Part shown: in pieces, positions 41,501 through 47,500 of the stretch
How the letters are laid out: each line of letters opens with the position of its first letter
Position numbering within the stretch: the stretch's first letter is position 1
NCBI GenBank assembly: GCA_046704885.1
Contig: JBJKRB010000207.1
Coordinates: forward strand, 11,819 to 75,818
Direction: 5' to 3'
Source of the DNA: Thermoanaerobaculia bacterium
Lineage (GTDB): Bacteria > Acidobacteriota > Thermoanaerobaculia > Multivoradales > JBJKRB01
DNA length: 64,000 bases
Program-made: the position numbers

Positions 41501-44500
41501 GAAGTTTCCGGTCGAAAACGATCGGGTCGAGGAGACCATCGGCGCCGCGCTCCGCGCCGGCTGCCATCGCCTCGACGTCTTCTTTATGGTGGGCATCCCG
41601 GGGCAGGACCGCGCTTCCGCTCTCCGTTCGGTGGACTACGCTCGTCACCTGCTCGAACGCTTCGGCGACGACGGACGCCTACAGGTCTACGTTGCGCCTC
41701 TGGCGCCCTTTCTCGACCCGGGCAGCCTCGCCTTCGAGTCGGCGTCCGACTATGGTTATCGACTCCGCGCCCATACGCTCGCGGAGCATCGCGATCGGCT
41801 GTCCGCCGACACTTGGGAGGGGGTCCTCAACTACGAAAGCGCCGCGCTCCCCCAGCATCAGCTGGTCGACACCACCTATGAGGCGATGGCGCGACTGATC
41901 GAGGCGAAGCGCGATCTCGGCCGACTCGAGGCCGGGCAAGCGGCGCGCAGACTCGAGCTGGTGCGAGCCGCCCAGGACTTAATGGCCGCGGCGCGGAACC
42001 ATACGGACGCCGATGGAAGCGCGGCGATCGCACCGGTCGCCAGCCAACGAGCACAGATGGAGTCTCTGACCTCTTGCCGCGTTTACGACCAGACCGATTT
42101 CGTCAGCTGGGGGCGCCGGCGCAGGCAGTTCCGCTCCCTCGGTCTTGCCGTCTTGATGCTGGAGCTCTTTTTCGAGGAGCTCCGTCACGCCTGGTTGCGC
42201 TGGCGCCGCAAGTGCTATCGCTGGTCCAGCGCAAGGAGCCTGGCAACGAATCCCGCTGCCAGCGCCGTCCTTTCTTTTCCACCGCGAGGTTGAGCCGACG
42301 CCAAACTCGCACTTCCAGCCACCGCAACAGCCGTCGCCGGGCGTGCTTGCTACAATTGTGACGGTTGCATACCACCGAAATCTATTTGCATCGAACCGCT
42401 TCTGAGGGCTTATGGAGATCAAGAAATTTCCTCGTCTGACATATAACTGGATCAGCGCTCTAGGCGCCGCTTTGGCGATCGTCTCGGGACTGACCCTCGC
42501 AGTGCTTCTCGCCTTCGGGCTCTTCTTCAAGCACGAGTTCAACCCATATTTCGGCATTTTCGTCTACACCATCCTGCCGCCGCTGCTCGTCGCCGGCCTG
42601 TTGCTCATCCCGATCGGGATGTATCGGGAATGGCGGCACTGGGGCAAGAGGGTGGAAGGAGAGACTCCCCGCTGGCCGCGAATCGACCTCAACAAGCCGA
42701 GCCACCGCAACGCGGCGTTCGTCTTCGTACTGGGCACCATCCTCTTTTTCATCATCAGCGGGGTCGCCACCTATGGCGCCTATCAGTACAGCGACTCGGT
42801 GGCCTTCTGCGGCAAGACCTGCCACTCGGTCATGTCCCCCGAGTACACCACCTACCAGCATTCGCCTCACGCTCGCGTCGCCTGCGCCTCCTGCCACGTC
42901 GGGCCCGGTGCCGGCTGGTTCGTCAAGTCGAAGCTCTCCGGCACCTACCAGATCTATGCCGTGCTGACCAACAAGTATCCGCGCCCCATCCCGACGCCGA
43001 TCGAGAGCTTGCGACCGGCGCAGGCCACCTGCGAGCAGTGCCACTGGCCGCGCATGATCTTCGGGGCGCAGCAGAAGCAGTTCAACAACTACAAGTACGA
43101 CAAGGAAAACTCGTACTGGCCGATCAACATGCTGATCAAGACCGGCGGCGGAGCTCCCAGCACCGGGCAGACCTCGGGCATCCACTGGCACATGAACATC
43201 GGCGTCACCGTCGAGTACATCGCCCGCGACGCGCATCGCCAGGACATCCCCTGGGTGAAGGTCACCGACAAGACGACGCGCCGGGTGACGATCTACCAAG
43301 ACAAGACCAATCCACTTACCAAGGCGCAGATCGCCGCGGCGACGCCACGAGTGATGGACTGCATGGACTGTCACAACCGGCCGAGCCACATCTTCCTCTC
43401 CCCGGACCAGGCGATCGACCACAAGATCCTGATCGGCGATATCTCGACCTCTCTACCCTTCGCCAAGAAGGAGGCGGTCGAGGCGATGGCCGCGAAGTAC
43501 ACCTCCGATCAGCAGGCGATGGAACAGATCGCCAACAAGATGACCGACTTCTACCGCACCAAGTACCCACAGGTCGCGGAGCAGGACCGGGTCGAGATCG
43601 ACAACGCGATCAAGGCGACCCAGGCCGCTTACAAGGAGAATATCTTCCCGCGCATGAAGGCGCGTTGGTCGGACTATCCCAACAACATCGGGCACTTCAT
43701 CAGCAAGGGGTGCATGCGCTGCCACGACGGCAACCACGTCTCGGCGGACGGCGTCGTGGTGCCCAAGAGCTGCACCACCTGCCACACCATCCTCTCTGAA
43801 GGAAGCGGCGCCAACCGGCGGGTGGCGAGCAGCCCTGACGGGCTTACCTTCCAGCACCCCGAGGACATCGGCGGCGCCTGGCAGGACACCGGCTGCTTCG
43901 AGTGCCACTCCGGTACCCAGCCCTGACCTGAGGTCAAGCCAAGCAAACGGACCAGGGCCGTGGCGCGCCAAGCGCCACGGCCATTTCTTACGGCATCGGG
44001 TGCTGGACTTGGGCGGCGTTGGGGACGAGTTGCTGGTAGGTGCTTTGGGGCACTTGCGACTGCCAGTGGCCGGTAACCTTGGCGAAGCCGACGACGCTCA
44101 CGAAGATAACGGCGATCGCCGCGGCTACCGCCCAACCACGGACGGTTCGCCCCTTGCGTCCGGGTCCACCCTCCCCTTTTGCGCCGGCGAGTCGGGGGAG
44201 CGATAGGTCGAGGGCGTCGGCGACCGGGCAGGCGGTGACGCAGGAGAGGCACGCCGAGCACTCGACCGAGCGCACCGTATCGAGCTTGTCGACGGGGAGA
44301 CCGGCTGGACAGGCCTTGGCGCACTTGCCGCAGTCGATGCAGGTCTGGGAATCACGCCGGACCGCCGTTGGGCTGAACAGCGAGACGATCCCCAGGAGGG
44401 CGCCATAGGGGCAGAGGTAGCGGCACCAGAAGTCCTTGACCAAGATCGAGCCGATCACGAGAAAGCCGATCACGACGATCCCGGTAGTCCCCAGAAAGCG

Positions 44501-47500
44501 GAAGAAGTCGAGCATCTTGACATCGGCGATGACGCCGTAAGGTGAACGCATGAAGCCGTCGATCGCCGCGGCCGACATCCCCGCCACCGCCCAGACGAAG
44601 AAACCGAGAAGGAGGTACTTCATGCCGCGAAGCGGCAGATCGAGCCCGCGCGGCAGACGGAGGTTGCGGCCGAAGATCTTCTTGCCGAGCCGCCACAGGC
44701 CCTCGCTCAGAGTGCCCACCGGGCAGAGCCAACTGCAGAACGCCTTGCGTAGGAGAAACGCGATCGCGAGAAATGTGATCAGCAGGAACATGGCGGCGGG
44801 GTGAATCGCCGGAATCCGGCCGCTCACGATCCAGTACTTGAGGTTCATCAAGCCGGCGATCGGAAGCCACCCTTCGACTCCCGCCGGATGGCCTGCCGCC
44901 GAAGCCCCTCCGGATCTACCCGCGCTTACCACCCAGAAATAGAGCTCGAAGCCGAGCGCCACGTTGAGCAGCAGGAAGGCGATCTGCAATAGGTGGCGCC
45001 AACGCTGCGACCGGTCGGGACGACGGCGGATCACCGGCCTCTTCCGCTTCACCCGGACAGGCTCAGGACGTGGAGGAATTCTGCCTGTACTCGGCGCCAG
45101 AGTCTCTGTGGCGCCGACGGATTTTCGATTGGTCTGCGGTTCCATCTCTGCACCTCTCTGTCCGAGCCTAGAAGAATGGGCGCGCCGTCCCTATGACCGA
45201 GGTCATATCTCTTCGGACGCCTCGGTACACCATTACGCGAGCACGATGACGCAGGCGTTCTCCAATTGCTCAGGCGCCTCGCTGGCAAGGCACGCCGACG
45301 CAGGCGATGCCGTGCATCGCCGAGGCGGCGCAACACGGCCAGCGGGGATGCCTGGGCCTCGTATGGGCCGCCGTGGTCTCGGGACGGTGTACCGAGGCGA
45401 TAAAAAAGCTCCCGCGGGTTCGCGGCCCGCGGGAGGATGTAAGGAGGATGAATGCCCCTGCCAGAGGGCTCTAAAGGCCGATCATGCTCCACAGAATGGC
45501 GATGATCAGCAGCAAACCGATAAAGAGCGCCAGGAACCCTAGCGCCGAGCGCGTGCGAAGCTCCTTGGCGGAGGGCGGATCGACCAGGTACTTCTCCAGC
45601 TCACCGTTCTCCACCATCCGTTGATACTCGAGCGGCCGCTCTTCCTTGAACTTGTCGAGCGGCATCGCCCCGACGAAGATCACCGGATCGATCGGGAAGC
45701 TCTCCGGACGCAGATGCGTGTGGAAGAAGTGGAAGATGAAGATGAAGCCGACCGCTAATAGGGCTTCGTCGCTGTGGATGATATAGGCGGCATTGAGCGC
45801 CCAGCCGGGCAGCAGGTGCGCGGCCACCGCCGGGAACCAGAGAATCAGCCCCGAGGTTCCGATGATCACAACGCCCCAGAAGACCGCCAGATAGTCGAAC
45901 TTCTCCCAGTAGGTGAAGCGGTCCATGGGCGGGCGCTTGCCGATATAGAAGAAGTACTTGAAGTTGTTGAAGATGTCGCGAATATCTTTCCACTGCGGCA
46001 CCATCGACCTCCAACCCCAGAACACGCCCTTCTCGCGCCGGAGCACCGACAAGACGAAGACCTGCCCCAGGTGGAAGATGAAGTAACCGAAGGTGAAGAT
46101 GGCGGCCAAGCGATGCAGCACCCTGGCCGCGGCCGGGCCGCCAAAGATGTCCGCTAGGGTCTTGGCCCAGATGGCATCGTGGAACTTGAGTGGGAGCCCG
46201 GTCGCCGCGAGGAGGAGGAAGGTGATGATGATCGTCGCGTGAATCCAGATCTGCGTCTTCGAGAATCGGCGCACGTACTTGCCGCCGTTCTCGCTTCTCT
46301 TCACCTCGCCGCGAAGCACGGCAACGATGGATCGCTGCAACCACAAAGCGTCGTGCAGCCCGAAGAATCCGAACACCCCGACCAAGAGGATGGTCATGAA
46401 GAGCCAGATGTAATGCAGGGTCGGGTTCGCCGACGAGCTCTGCGGGTTGGAGTGCGGATCGAACGTGATGAAGGAGGCCGTCACCGTGCCGTGACACGCA
46501 CCGCAGGTCTTCGGAAGGTTCTTCGGGTTGACGCTCGAGGCCGGATTGCTCACCGGCAGCTGATGGTGCGGCGTATGGCAGTCGGAGCAAGTCGCCGCGG
46601 TCATGAAGCCGATGTCGGTCGCCTGGCCGTGGAAGCTGTCGCGGTAGGTCGAGTAGCGCTGCTCGTGGCAGTTGCCGCAGTTTTCCGGAGTCTTGAGGCG
46701 GGCCGACTGGCTGGTCGGCGGGACGATCTTGTGCGCCGTGTGGCAAGTAATGCAGACCGGCGCCAACGGGTTGCCCTTGAGCCACTCCTGACCGTGACTG
46801 CTCGTCTCCCAAGTCGTGAGGATGAAGCGGTGACACGAACCACAGGTCTTGGGCACGTTCTTGTGCGAAACGGTCGAGCGCGGATCGCTCGGCGGCAGGA
46901 TGTCGTGGCTGCCGTGACACGTGCTGCAGGTCGGGGCGTTGGCCAGTCCGTCGACCAGGAGGGCCTTGGCGTGGACGCTCGCTAGATAGCCCTGCACCAG
47001 CTGGGGCGGCTGATCATGACAACGACCGCAGGTCTTGAACTGCTGCAGCGGGAAGAGCGGCGAGGTCGCCTCGGAGGGCGGAGTGATCGCATGCGCCGGG
47101 CCGTGGCAATCGGTGCAGGAGAGGTCCTTGTGCACACTGCCGGCCAAGGTCTTGCCGACCTCGTGGCACTGGGCGCAGAGCTTTGGAGCGTGGAGCTCCT
47201 TGAGGGCGTTCTCCGGGTGAGGGTACTTCTCGATGTTGCTGTGACAGTCGGTGCAGGCGAGATCGCCATGCGGCTTGGGGGCGATCTTGACGTCGTCGTG
47301 GCAGGAGAGACAGTTGGTCTCCTGCGCCCGCGCCGTTCCCGCCCCGGCGAAACTGAAAACGATGATGAGAAAGGAGGCTACAAGCGTGGCGAGCGCCACC
47401 CCGGCGTGGGTTCGTCCTGCGGGACTTCGAGTCACTTCTCTACCTCCCTGAACCCTCTTTTCCTGCTGTCGGCCGCACCCTTCCCGTCAGACCGGGGGCG

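What the first reader, a model, noticed from the sequence alone, without database searches (positions are those of the whole stretch)
42412..47435. ImcH-like and CbcL-like inner-membrane cytochromes juxtaposed around a NapH-like polyferredoxin
In Geobacter, ImcH and CbcL are unlinked alternative quinol oxidases tuned to different acceptor redox potentials. Here homologous-looking proteins sit about 1.5 kb apart, convergently transcribed with a NapH/MauN-type membrane ferredoxin. The ImcH-like protein carries one non-canonical CX3CH haem site (FCGKTCH) plus six CxxCH. The CbcL-like protein has 11 CxxCH versus 9 in Geobacter CbcL, followed by an FdnI/HydC-type cytochrome b domain.
Basis: partly seen in the sequence, partly recalled or inferred. 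Interest (0 to 1): 0.7.

Follow-up and report, generated by a model that had tools for sequence, protein, structure and literature searches.

The report
Linked ImcH and CbcL-family membrane cytochromes
This stretch of a Thermoanaerobaculia genome encodes two already-known kinds of inner-membrane cytochrome that carry respiratory electrons towards the cell surface; placing them side by side is common outside Geobacter, and the ferredoxin gene between them is an unrelated insertion.

Summary
The window holds a 504-aa protein with 3 TM helices, FCGKTCH and six CxxCH (42412-43926, +). It also holds a 385-aa NapH-like polyferredoxin (43988-45145, -) and a 654-aa protein with 11 CxxCH and an FdnI-type cytochrome b domain (45471-47435, -).

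The reading as unusual does not hold.
- **CX3CH motif:** it is the published hallmark of all ImcH proteins, including G. sulfurreducens.
- **Haem count:** eleven is the commonest count in ImcH-linked CbcL-family proteins.
- **Juxtaposition:** of 59 species-representative genomes with enough flank, 37 carry a fused multihaem-c/cytochrome-b gene within 1 kb of imcH. Published tables also show adjacent locus tags in Desulfuromonadia-related MAGs.
- **NapH-like gene:** it is absent from all 80 other imcH loci and from the closest syntenic relative. It is flanked by terminator-like hairpins, and its orthologues sit alone in unrelated contexts.
- **Branch of the "CbcL-like" protein:** its haem spacing matches MtoC/MtrH, not Geobacter CbcL. 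It sits in an mto/mtr-like island with a monohaem cytochrome c, an MtrA-like decahaem, a barrel and a Rieske/cytochrome b/11-haem module.

Verdict: a new member of known kinds, in an extracellular-electron-transfer island. The general imcH-cbcL linkage is the only modestly interesting point.

The parts
42412..43926 (+). ImcH-family inner-membrane heptahaem cytochrome (504 aa): 3 TM helices, CX3CH first haem site, six CxxCH
   Evidence: Motifs and TM segments. PF03264 NapC/NirT scores 35.6 bits against a cut-off of 24.1. NrfH 2j7a_C matches at E=1.4e-5 over residues 101-214. F132, C133, G134, C137, H138, K174 and Q180 are invariant in 34 homologues. Haem and TM positions are colinear with GSU3259 in Table S3 of PMC6295460.
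43956..43982 (+). Terminator-like hairpin 30 nt after the imcH stop, inside the 61-nt gap to the convergent gene
   Evidence: 11-bp stem with 10 G-C pairs, followed by ATTTCTTACG. This is a pattern match only.
43988..45145 (-). Stand-alone NapH-superfamily membrane polyferredoxin (385 aa). It lies inside the finding's coordinates but is an unrelated, lineage-specific insertion.
   Evidence: Domain hits. Zero tblastn hits at E<=1e-3 in 80 other imcH loci. Absent from the syntenic relative L094. Orthologues of 57-66% identity sit alone in unrelated contexts.
45409..45435 (-). Terminator-like hairpin 36 nt after the stop of the CbcL-family gene; it separates that gene from the polyferredoxin gene
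   Evidence: 10-bp stem with 9 G-C pairs, followed by CTTTTTTATC.
45471..47435 (-). CbcL/MtrH/MtoC-family fusion protein (654 aa): 11 c-type haem sites, then a six-helix FdnI-type dihaem cytochrome b domain
   Evidence: Motifs. AF2 model pLDDT 76.8. The only significant Foldseek hit in the PDB is FdnI 1kqf_C (E=1.4e-5, TM 0.79 on the target). TIGR01583 matches at E=4e-6. Seven His are conserved in 54-55 of 55 family members. Haem spacing matches MtoC/MtrH.
47579..47983 (-). Monohaem class-I cytochrome c (134 aa, one CNTCH, N-terminal hydrophobic segment), upstream of the CbcL-family gene; MtoD-like by size and position only
   Evidence: PF00034 at E=1.1e-8. A small cytochrome c is kept next to imcH/cbcL in L002, L003 and L094.
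48285..49202 (+). MtrA/DmsE-family periplasmic decahaem cytochrome (305 aa, 10 CxxCH)
   Evidence: TIGR03508 scores 193.8 bits against a cut-off of 192.2. 6r2q_A (333-aa chain of the MtrCAB entry) matches at E=2.1e-27 over residues 37-299.
49215..51107 (+). Putative outer-membrane beta-barrel (630 aa) paired with the decahaem cytochrome
   Evidence: Signal-peptide-like N-terminus, no Cys, C-terminal ...GYRW. Only a weak OMP_b-brl hit, E=1.2e-4. Weak homologues follow MtrA-like genes in L043 and L049. A 609-aa counterpart occurs in L094.
51132..54817 (+). Rieske protein, cytochrome b and an 11-haem cytochrome c (577 aa): a bc-type quinol oxidoreductase module
   Evidence: Domain hits. Haem count. 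The same trio lies near imcH in L002, L003 and L004. Cytochrome b hits occur in 25 of 80 imcH loci.

Best explanation
The finding lies at one end of a roughly 12.4-kb extracellular-electron-transfer island (42.4-54.8 kb) in the chromosome of a Thermoanaerobaculia (Acidobacteriota) bacterium.

**Gene A** is an ImcH-family menaquinol:cytochrome c oxidoreductase.
- Three helices anchor it in the membrane.
- Haem 1 is bound by the family's CX3CH site. Gln180, Lys174 and Tyr189 surround it, next to the periplasmic membrane face, as in NrfH.
- Inferred: quinol is oxidised there and electrons run along seven haems to periplasmic carriers.

**Gene C** is a CbcL/MtrH/MtoC-family protein of the MtoC/MtrH branch.
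- A dihaem FdnI-type cytochrome b is fused to an 11-haem periplasmic wire.
- The b domain links a quinone site on the cytoplasmic face to that wire.

**Inferred pathway.** Both proteins, with the monohaem cytochrome c, feed the MtrA-like decahaem/barrel conduit. The Rieske/cytochrome b/11-haem module would be a third quinol outlet.

**What is shown.** A, C(+D) and B are separate transcription units. The imcH-cbcL neighbourhood is a widespread, conserved arrangement. The NapH-like gene B is an independent polyferredoxin gene that landed between them in this lineage only.

**What is inferred.** The direction of electron flow (outwards, metal or humic reduction), the partners, and any tuning to redox potential.
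For: **Family features**
- A.
- C.

**Source organism**
- P0001 (94% identical to A) is annotated as Thermoanaerobaculia.
- P0121 and P0241 are 100% identical to C and B and lie on an 81.8-kb NCBI contig.

**Island content:**

**Conserved module without B**
- L094 has barrel<-mtrA-like | cyt c->cbcL-like-> <-imcH with a 285-bp gap.
- L002 and L003 have imcH and the 11-haem orthologue directly adjacent.

**Linkage statistics**
- 37 of 59 loci have a fused c/b cytochrome within 1 kb of imcH.
- 35 of those are directly upstream on the same strand.

**Independence of B:**

**No catalytic reductase in the window:**

**Mechanistic background**
- ImcH quinol site and His/Gln haem 1: preprint 10.1101/2023.05.03.539133.
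- FdnI-type b domain puts quinone chemistry on the cytoplasmic side: preprint 10.1101/2022.08.31.506072.
Against: - No sequence of GSU3259, GSU0274, MtoC or MtrH could be obtained. Placement relative to them rests on published motif and TM coordinates, not on alignment or a tree.
- Pfam Ni_hydr_CYTB on C is below its cut-off (24.8 against 30.1 bits).
- The barrel has no MtrB/PioB family hit.
- The 80 loci are the best tblastn matches out of at least 600. They are not a random sample and contain no Desulfuromonadia.
- There are no expression or biochemical data for this organism.
- MtoC-type proteins are also proposed to work inwards in Fe(II) oxidisers.
Confidence: 0.78

Rival explanations
1. 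The island works inwards, as in the Mto system: electrons from extracellular Fe(II) or a cathode-like donor enter through the MtrA-like/barrel conduit. They then pass via the monohaem cytochrome to the MtoC-like protein, which reduces quinone. The Rieske/cytochrome b module serves reverse or downhill flow.
For: - C has the MtoC/MtrH haem spacing (...28,30,25,30,28 against 31,31,25,30,28).
- The gene set cyt c + MtoC-like + MtrA-like + barrel mirrors the mtoABCD clusters described in PMC6295460.
- A bc-type module is adjacent.
Against: - ImcH homologues have so far been tied only to reducers (PMC6295460).
- MtrH of the Fe(III) reducer Rhodoferax has the same spacing.
- No terminal oxidase or nitrate reductase was found among the window ORFs scanned.
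- From my own memory, not checked here: the cultured Thermoanaerobaculum aquaticum is an anaerobe reported to reduce Fe(III) and Mn(IV).
Confidence: 0.15
2. ImcH and the neighbouring CbcL-family protein are an obligate functional pair (one complex, or one co-regulated two-site quinol oxidase). They are not independent alternatives; the unlinked Geobacter arrangement is derived.
For: - A same-strand tandem with gaps of 6-390 bp occurs in 35 of 59 loci across at least seven phylum-level groups.
- Locus tags are adjacent even for Geobacter-type CbcL in three MAGs of Tables S2 and S3.
- The pair survives rearrangement: tandem in L003, convergent in L002, L005, L094 and the window.
Against: - In G. 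sulfurreducens each protein works without the other, over different potential ranges.
- 22 of 59 loci lack a fused neighbour within 1 kb.
- In the window they are convergent, separately terminated units.
- Linkage of alternative branches of one pathway is common without physical interaction.
Confidence: 0.2
3. The NapH-like polyferredoxin is a working partner that couples a cytoplasmic donor or the quinone pool to the two cytochromes.
For: - It lies physically between the two genes.
- It has the NapH-type CX3CP and 4Fe-4S motifs.
Against: - 0 of 80 imcH loci carry a homologue at E<=1e-3.
- It is absent from the nearest syntenic relative.
- Terminator-like hairpins lie on both sides.
- Orthologues of 57-66% identity lie next to kinases, Usp, cyclase, integrase and CotH genes, with no cytochromes nearby.
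- It scores far below the NapH cut-offs (76.6 against 213.05 bits).
Confidence: 0.04
4. A is an NrfH/NapC-type quinol dehydrogenase serving a soluble nitrite, nitrate or TMAO reductase.
For: - Weak similarity to NrfH and TorC (TIGR03153 at 52.5 bits; TorC at E=1e-6).
- JGI names several homologues 'nitrate/TMAO reductase-like tetrahaem cytochrome c subunit'.
Against: - Scores are far below the cut-offs (52.5 against 134.2 bits; 28.2 against 455 bits).
- A has seven haems and three TM helices, not four haems and one helix.
- No NrfA, NapA or TorA lies in the window or beside the homologues inspected.
Confidence: 0.02

Closest known systems
ImcH of Geobacter sulfurreducens (GSU3259; Levar et al. 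2014, PMC4251993)
   Same: - Length is 504 aa against 507 aa.
- Both have three N-terminal TM helices (21-39, 48-66, 101-119 here; 13-35, 45-67, 100-122 in GSU3259).
- Both have a CX3CH first haem site beside TM3.
- The seven haem sites are at 133, 158, 207, 317, 434, 454, 495 here and at 132, 156, 205, 311, 428, 448, 486 in GSU3259.
- H138, K174, Q180 and Y189 correspond to the published H137, K173, Q179 and Y188.
- Both have a NapC/NirT-like region.
   Different: - Asp128 stands where GSU3259 has Glu127; at least 90% of the 34 aligned homologues have Glu.
- imcH is monocistronic and unlinked to cbcL in G. sulfurreducens.
- Here it lies 1.5 kb from a CbcL-family gene and 4.4 kb from an MtrA-like/barrel pair. 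The 2018 survey (PMC6295460) found no mtrAB next to any imcH.
- Pairwise identity to GSU3259 could not be measured.
CbcL of Geobacter sulfurreducens (GSU0274; Zacharoff et al. 2016)
   Same: - A multihaem c domain is followed by six TM helices with a HydC/FdnI-type dihaem b domain, in one polypeptide.
- It is the same published family (CbcL/MtrH/MtoC, 3-23 haems).
   Different: - 11 haems against 9.
- Terminal haem spacing is 28,30,25,30,28 against 29,28,43,28.
- The Geobacter spacing is instead matched by a second clade (...30,29,42,28). That clade lies directly upstream of imcH in Terriglobia and others, and is only about 26% identical to C in the b domain.
MtoC / MtrH (Gallionella capsiferriformans Galf_2006, Dechloromonas aromatica Daro_1404, Rhodoferax ferrireducens Rfer_4073) and their mtoABCD / mtrAB clusters
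   Same: - The spacing of the last six haems is the same (31,31,25,30,28 against 28,30,25,30,28).
- There are six TM helices.
- The gene is clustered with an MtrA-family decahaem, a barrel and a small monohaem cytochrome c.
   Different: - There are two extra haem sites (residues 61 and 136).
- The host is an Acidobacteriota bacterium, not a Proteobacterium.
- The barrel has no MtrB/PioB family match.
- An imcH gene is attached to the cluster.
NapH / MauN / NosR-type membrane polyferredoxins
   Same: B has two CX3CP motifs (Fer4_5), several TM helices and two C-terminal 4Fe-4S motifs.
   Different: - B scores far below the NapH cut-offs.
- No NapG, NapA or NapC partner is present.
- B has an Arg-rich N-terminal extension and an extra C-terminal TM helix.
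- It belongs to a large family of stand-alone genes of about 376 aa in Acidobacteriota, of unknown role.

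Membership tests
ImcH family | Three N-terminal transmembrane helices | tested here: met
   Hydrophobic segments lie at 21-39, 48-66 and 101-119. AF2 helices lie at 13-38, 45-80 and 96-128. GSU3259 has 13-35, 45-67 and 100-122.
ImcH family | Atypical CX3CH first haem motif next to the third helix | tested here: met
   C133-G-K-T-C137-H138. F132, C133, G134, C137 and H138 are invariant in 34 homologues. The feature is described in PMC4251993 and PMC6295460.
ImcH family | Six further CX2CH motifs, colinear with GSU3259 | tested here: met
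   Positions here are 158, 207, 317, 434, 454 and 495. GSU3259 has 156, 205, 311, 428, 448 and 486.
ImcH family | Region of NapC/NirT (NrfH) homology covering TM3 and the first haems | tested here: met
   PF03264 scores 35.6 bits against a cut-off of 24.1, over residues 100-189. NrfH 2j7a_C matches at E=1.4e-5, residues 101-214.
ImcH family | Conserved residues around haem 1 (Gsu E127, K173, Q179, Y188) | tested here: met
   D128 (Glu in at least 90% of homologues), K174, Q180 and Y189.
ImcH family | Pairwise or phylogenetic grouping with GSU3259 | not testable with these tools
   No Geobacter sequence could be retrieved. The only direct fragment is primer 3259KHis1, which encodes PRMKVT. It matches PRMK at residue 413 of A, 92 residues from the end, which fits the stated '~300-bp 3' fragment'.
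ImcH family | Needed only for acceptors above about -0.1 V | not testable with these tools
   This needs genetics and electrochemistry.
CbcL/MtrH/MtoC family | N-terminal periplasmic domain with 3-23 CX2CH motifs | tested here: met
   11 motifs lie at residues 42-311, and all 22 Cys are in them.
CbcL/MtrH/MtoC family | Six C-terminal transmembrane helices | tested here: met
   AF2 helices lie at 338-375, 393-417, 434-465, 509-533, 545-572 and 623-653. The hydrophobicity scan agrees.
CbcL/MtrH/MtoC family | HydC/FdnI-type dihaem cytochrome b fold | tested here: met
   Foldseek finds 1kqf_C at E=1.4e-5, probability 1.00, TM 0.79 on the target, 234 columns. TIGR01583 matches at E=4e-6. Caveat: PF01292 scores 24.8 bits, below its cut-off of 30.1.
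CbcL/MtrH/MtoC family | Conserved histidines in the membrane domain | tested here: met
   H328, H361, H399, H441, H455, H554 and H569 are kept in 54-55 of 55 proteins of both clades.
Geobacter CbcL in the strict sense | Nine haems with spacing 23,25,23,24,29,28,43,28 | tested here: not met
   C has 11 haems with spacing 19,26,20,29,34,28,30,25,30,28, against Table S2.
MtoC/MtrH branch | Terminal haem spacing ~31,31,25,30,28 and clustering with mtrA/mtoA, a barrel and a monohaem cytochrome | tested here: met
   Spacing. MtrA-family decahaem: TIGR03508 at 193.8 bits against 192.2. Neighbours. Sequence grouping with MtoC/MtrH itself was not testable.
NapH (quinol dehydrogenase ferredoxin subunit) | Score above the curated family cut-off | tested here: not met
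   TIGR02163 scores 76.6 bits against 213.05. NF007013 scores 68.6 bits against 234.
NapH (quinol dehydrogenase ferredoxin subunit) | Encoded with NapG/NapA or another catalytic partner | tested here: not met
   None is in the window. None is beside five orthologues.
NrfH/NapC quinol dehydrogenases | Tetrahaem, single helix, score above cut-off, adjacent catalytic subunit | tested here: not met
   TIGR03153 scores 52.5 bits against 134.2. A has seven haems and three helices. No NrfA or NapA is nearby.
MtrAB-type porin-cytochrome conduit | MtrB/PioB-family barrel next to the decahaem cytochrome | tested here: inconclusive
   The 630-aa protein has outer-membrane features. It has no MtrB/PioB hit in Pfam or NCBIfam. 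No alignment-based model could be made.

The most novel reading that the evidence does not exclude
Outside the Desulfuromonadia, imcH is usually co-transcribed with a CbcL-family gene. The two quinol sites, periplasmic-face in ImcH and cytoplasmic-face in the FdnI-type b domain, may therefore work as one coupled unit: a single complex, or a pair whose joint regulation prevents a futile quinone cycle. On this reading the independent, unlinked Geobacter proteins are a derived special case. I did not find this linkage stated in the papers searched.
Probability: 0.2. Interest if true: 0.6.

Novelty: new member of a known kind. Interest (0 to 1): 0.3.

Why it matters
On its own the locus adds one more ImcH and one more MtoC/MtrH-type protein to families already known in more than a dozen phyla.

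What may be useful is the pattern it led to.
- In the genomes sampled, imcH sits directly beside a CbcL-family gene in about 63% of cases.
- It often also sits beside a Rieske/cytochrome b/multihaem module.
- Levar et al. (2014) noted that finding ImcH's partners would sharpen sequence-based prediction of metal respiration. Conserved neighbours are candidate partners.
- One carrier is a cultured isolate, Maribellus sp. YY47, where this could be tested.

The locus also shows an imcH within 4.4 kb of an MtrA-like/barrel pair. The 2018 survey did not find that combination.

Tried and rejected
1. **Direct comparison with GSU3259, GSU0274, MtoC and MtrH.** No tool returned those sequences.
   - The homologue lists show only the best 120 hits.
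   - The genome scan kept its best 80, with no Desulfuromonadia among them.
   - I used the published motif and TM coordinates from Tables S2 and S3 of PMC6295460 instead.
2. **AF2 model of A.** Mean pLDDT was 65.9, and below 50 around most haem sites. Foldseek against the PDB gave nothing at E<=0.001, so this was uninformative.
3. **Sequence and profile searches of C against the PDB.**
   - FdnI scored only E=0.22.
   - The best hit, 28pb_A ('Cytochrome c', 278 aa), is a generic multihaem match.
   - The fold search was needed to settle the b domain.
4. **D against the PDB.** Only generic class-I cytochromes matched and no MtoD match appeared. 'MtoD-like' therefore rests on size and position.
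5. **NCBIfam.** No ImcH- or CbcL-specific model matched A or C, so no curated cut-off could be applied.
6. **Literature searches for a statement of imcH-cbcL adjacency.** None was found; absence from this library is not proof.
7. **Rfam and tRNA scans of the window.** Nothing was found.
8. **Unused.** The single search of protein representatives and the metagenome scan were not run, because they return no names and would not change the verdict.

Full report
**1. Observation**

Gene A (42412-43926, +, 504 aa):
- It has CGKTCH at residues 133-138, preceded by F132.
- It has CxxCH at 158, 207, 317, 434, 454 and 495.
- Its 14 cysteines are exactly the 7 x 2 of these motifs.
- Three hydrophobic segments lie at 21-39, 48-66 and 101-119.

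Gene B (43988-45145, -, 385 aa):
- It has two CX3CP motifs and two CxxCxxCxxxCP motifs.
- It hits Fer4_5 twice and the NapH/MauN model weakly.

Gene C (45471-47435, -, 654 aa):
- It has 11 CxxCH, and all 22 cysteines are in them.
- It has an N-terminal hydrophobic segment and six later helices.

A converges on B and C. The 3' ends of A and C are 1,544 bp apart. Third-position GC of the called frames is 0.80-0.88. Each protein has thousands of full-length homologues.

**2. Source and surroundings**

The closest homologue of A (94% identity) is annotated as Thermoanaerobaculia. Proteins identical to C and B come from one 81.8-kb NCBI contig. A 9-kb Logan contig carries the same gene order.

Downstream of C on the minus strand, and then on the plus strand, lie:
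- a monohaem cytochrome c (47579-47983);
- an MtrA/DmsE-family decahaem cytochrome (48285-49202). TIGR03508 scores 193.8 bits against a cut-off of 192.2. The 333-aa chain A of PDB 6r2q matches at E=2.1e-27;
- a 630-aa protein with outer-membrane-barrel features but no family hit (49215-51107);
- a Rieske protein, a cytochrome b and an 11-haem cytochrome (51132-54817).

The rest of the window is housekeeping: topoisomerase I, TyrRS, citrate synthase, aconitase and ABC transporters. It contains no nitrite, nitrate, TMAO or DMSO reductase. The finding is therefore one end of an electron-transfer island of about 12.4 kb.

**3. Gene A is an ImcH**

Levar et al. state that the first haem motif of G. 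sulfurreducens ImcH is CXXXCH (PMC4251993). Zhong and Shi report three TM motifs, an atypical CX3CH next to the membrane domain and, in the Geobacter group, six CX2CH. They report the CX3CH for all but two of the other homologues (PMC6295460).

Their Table S3 gives these positions for GSU3259 (507 aa), set against A:

| Feature | GSU3259 | A |
|---|---|---|
| Haem sites | 132, 156, 205, 311, 428, 448, 486 | 133, 158, 207, 317, 434, 454, 495 |
| TM helices | 13-35, 45-67, 100-122 | 21-39, 48-66, 101-119 |

Pimenta et al. single out H137, K173, Q179, Y188 and E127 of GSU3259 (preprint 10.1101/2023.05.03.539133). A has H138, K174, Q180, Y189 and D128. FCGxxCH, K174 and Q180 are invariant in 34 homologues.

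The NapC/NirT Pfam model passes its cut-off, and NrfH is the only PDB sequence hit. The NrfH and TorC equivalog models are far below their cut-offs. The 'non-canonical' site is thus the family's signature, not a peculiarity of this protein.

**4. Gene C is a CbcL/MtrH/MtoC-family protein of the MtoC/MtrH type**

Sequence evidence for the b domain is modest. TIGR01583 matches at E=4e-6. PF01292 scores 24.8 bits, below its cut-off of 30.1. FdnI scores E=0.22 in a profile search.

An AF2 model built on 33 sequences (pLDDT 76.8) settles it. It has a single significant PDB match, FdnI of E. coli formate dehydrogenase-N (1kqf_C). The match has E=1.4e-5, probability 1.00 and TM 0.79 on the target over 234 columns. 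Seven histidines in or near the membrane domain are kept in 54-55 of 55 relatives.

The published family spans 3-23 haems. Comparing Table S2 with C:

| Protein | Haems | Haem spacing |
|---|---|---|
| GSU0274 (CbcL) | 9 | 23,25,23,24,29,28,43,28 |
| MtoC of Gallionella | 9 | ends 31,31,25,30,28 |
| MtrH of Rhodoferax | 9 | ends 31,31,25,30,28 |
| C | 11 | ends 28,30,25,30,28 |
| 11-haem proteins of Dadabacteria and Omnitrophica | 11 | ends 28,30,25,30,28 |

C therefore looks like an MtoC/MtrH-type protein with two extra haems, at residues 61 and 136. This fits its neighbours, because mtoC and mtrH are the family members typically clustered with mtoA/mtrA, a barrel and the monohaem mtoD. It is an inference from motif spacing and context, since I could not obtain those sequences.

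**5. The juxtaposition is common**

Individual contexts:
- A second Thermoanaerobaculia MAG has the 11-haem orthologue and imcH convergent and directly adjacent (L002).
- Another contig has cyt c -> imcH -> cbcL-like in tandem (L003).
- Another has imcH convergent with two family members of 11 and 23 haems (L005-L007).

Genome scan:
- I scanned one genome per GTDB species with an ImcH alignment. This gave at least 600 matches, of which the best 80 were kept.
- Of 59 loci with at least 2.5 kb on both sides, 37 (63%) have a fused multihaem-c/cytochrome-b ORF within 1 kb of imcH.
- 35 of those are directly upstream on the same strand.
- Their haem counts are 9 (3 loci), 11 (24), 13 (6) and 19 (4).
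- The carriers include Acidobacteriota, Zixibacteriota, Latescibacteria, Dadabacteria, Bacteroidota, Ignavibacteriota and Omnitrophota.
- One carrier is an isolate, Maribellus sp. YY47 (L080).

The neighbours fall into two clades:
- C's clade has 12 members and 44-59% identity to C in the b domain.
- A larger clade has 41 members and about 26% identity to C. Its haem spacing ends 30,29,42,28, like Geobacter CbcL.
- Members of the larger clade are full-length homologues of C (30% identity over 646 residues, E=4e-96). They pass the Pfam cytochrome b cut-off.

The published tables contain the same signal, although I found no comment on it in the sections of PMC6295460 I read or searched (sections 10-11 in full, term searches elsewhere). 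CbcL and ImcH carry adjacent locus tags in three MAGs:
- Syntrophobacterales GWC2_56_13 (A2X96_02390 / 02395);
- Desulfuromonadaceae GWB2_53_15 (A2X79_01190 / 01185);
- Syntrophus GWC2_56_31 (A2X92_08565 / 08560).

Caveats: the 80 loci are the best matches to this window's protein, not a random sample. They include no Desulfuromonadia.

**6. The NapH-like gene does not belong**

- No homologue of B occurs in any of the 80 imcH loci, or in L002-L007, even at E<=1e-3.
- The closest relative with context (C orthologue 72% identical, L094) has the same module: barrel <- mtrA-like | cyt c -> cbcL-like -> <- imcH. Only 285 bp separate the last two genes, and there is no polyferredoxin.
- B belongs to a very large family of proteins of about 376 aa in Acidobacteriota. 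Orthologues of 57-66% identity are single genes beside kinases, Usp, cyclase, integrase or CotH genes.
- In the window, a hairpin with a 10-bp stem followed by CTTTTTTATC lies 36 nt after the stop of C. Another strong hairpin follows the stop of A.
- B scores 76.6 bits against the NapH/MauN cut-off of 213.

B is a NapH-superfamily polyferredoxin of unknown role, inserted here in one lineage.

**7. How it most likely works**

Shown: the domain content, the motifs, the fold of the b domain, the gene order and its conservation.

Inferred from the characterised homologues:
- ImcH oxidises menaquinol at a site beside haem 1 on the periplasmic face. It releases protons outside and passes electrons along seven haems.
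- The FdnI-type domain of C places quinone chemistry on the cytoplasmic face and carries electrons across the membrane through two b haems to 11 c haems. The CbcL literature argues this conserves no energy but helps with low-potential acceptors.
- The monohaem cytochrome and the MtrA-like/barrel pair would carry electrons onwards.
- The Rieske/cytochrome b/11-haem module would be a third, energy-conserving outlet.

Outward flow (reduction of metals or humics) is my preferred direction. Inward flow, as in Mto systems, cannot be excluded.

**8. Comparison and verdict**

Every feature put forward as unusual is normal for these families, so this is a new member of known kinds.

Two small extensions of the literature:
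- An imcH lies within 4.4 kb of an MtrA-like/barrel pair, a combination the 2018 survey did not find. MtrA-like hits occur in 9 of the 80 loci.
- imcH is linked to CbcL-family genes across many phyla. I did not find this stated in the papers searched.

The most novel reading still open is that the two proteins act as a coupled pair. I put that at about 0.2.

Noticed in passing
window 51132-54817: A Rieske protein, a cytochrome b (NCBIfam ExtP-like, 208.8 bits, below its cut-off of 290) and an 11-haem cytochrome form a bc-type module directly after the barrel gene. The same trio lies next to imcH in L002, L003 and L004. Cytochrome b hits occur in 25 of 80 imcH loci.
   Followed up: partly
window 49215-51107: A 630-aa putative outer-membrane barrel sits beside the MtrA-like decahaem gene. 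It has a signal peptide, no Cys and ends in GYRW, but has no MtrB/PioB hit in Pfam or NCBIfam. Only weak homologues (23% identity) follow MtrA-like genes in L043 and L049. It may be an undescribed conduit barrel family.
   Followed up: partly
L031:7942-9954 and about 40 other loci (for example L035, L045, L092): A second clade of CbcL-family proteins, mostly with 11 haems and spacing ...30,29,42,28, lies directly upstream of imcH in Terriglobia, Pyrinomonadaceae, Bacteroidota and others. None of the non-Desulfuromonadia entries in Table S2 of PMC6295460 that I compared shows its terminal spacing, yet that spacing resembles Geobacter CbcL.
   Followed up: partly
L055:4714-5664, L057:4724-5536, L060:9034-9885, L066:8939-9838: In some genomes the gene next to imcH is a stand-alone cytochrome b of 270-316 aa without haem c motifs. 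This suggests split versions of the CbcL-type fusion.
   Followed up: no
L005:11529-16617 (also L006, L007): imcH is convergent with two consecutive CbcL-family paralogues, one of each clade: 645 aa with 11 haems and 1030 aa with 23 haems.
   Followed up: no
window 40440-42293 and 38442-40247: A TIGR04190-family B12-binding radical SAM protein (612.6 bits) ends 119 bp upstream of imcH. Before it lies a 601-aa polytopic membrane protein with no family hit. Neither is present beside imcH in L094.
   Followed up: no
window 25562-26836: A fusion of an FTR1 iron permease with an FtrD-like membrane iron-sulfur domain lies next to two FtsX/MacB-type permease genes.
   Followed up: no
window 36775-38445: A rhodanese-domain protein is followed immediately by a Pyr_redox_2 flavoprotein of 379 aa (NDH-2 or sulfide:quinone reductase-like). 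This may be another quinone-linked input near the island.
   Followed up: no
L094:11869-19986: In the closest syntenic relative, a complete V/A-type ATPase operon lies directly beside imcH.
   Followed up: no
PDB chain 6r2q_A: The 333-aa chain that matches the decahaem cytochrome is labelled 'Cystathionine beta-synthase' in the tool's table. By length and match it behaves as the MtrA chain of the MtrCAB entry, so the label looks wrong. I relied on the sequence match, not the name.
   Followed up: no
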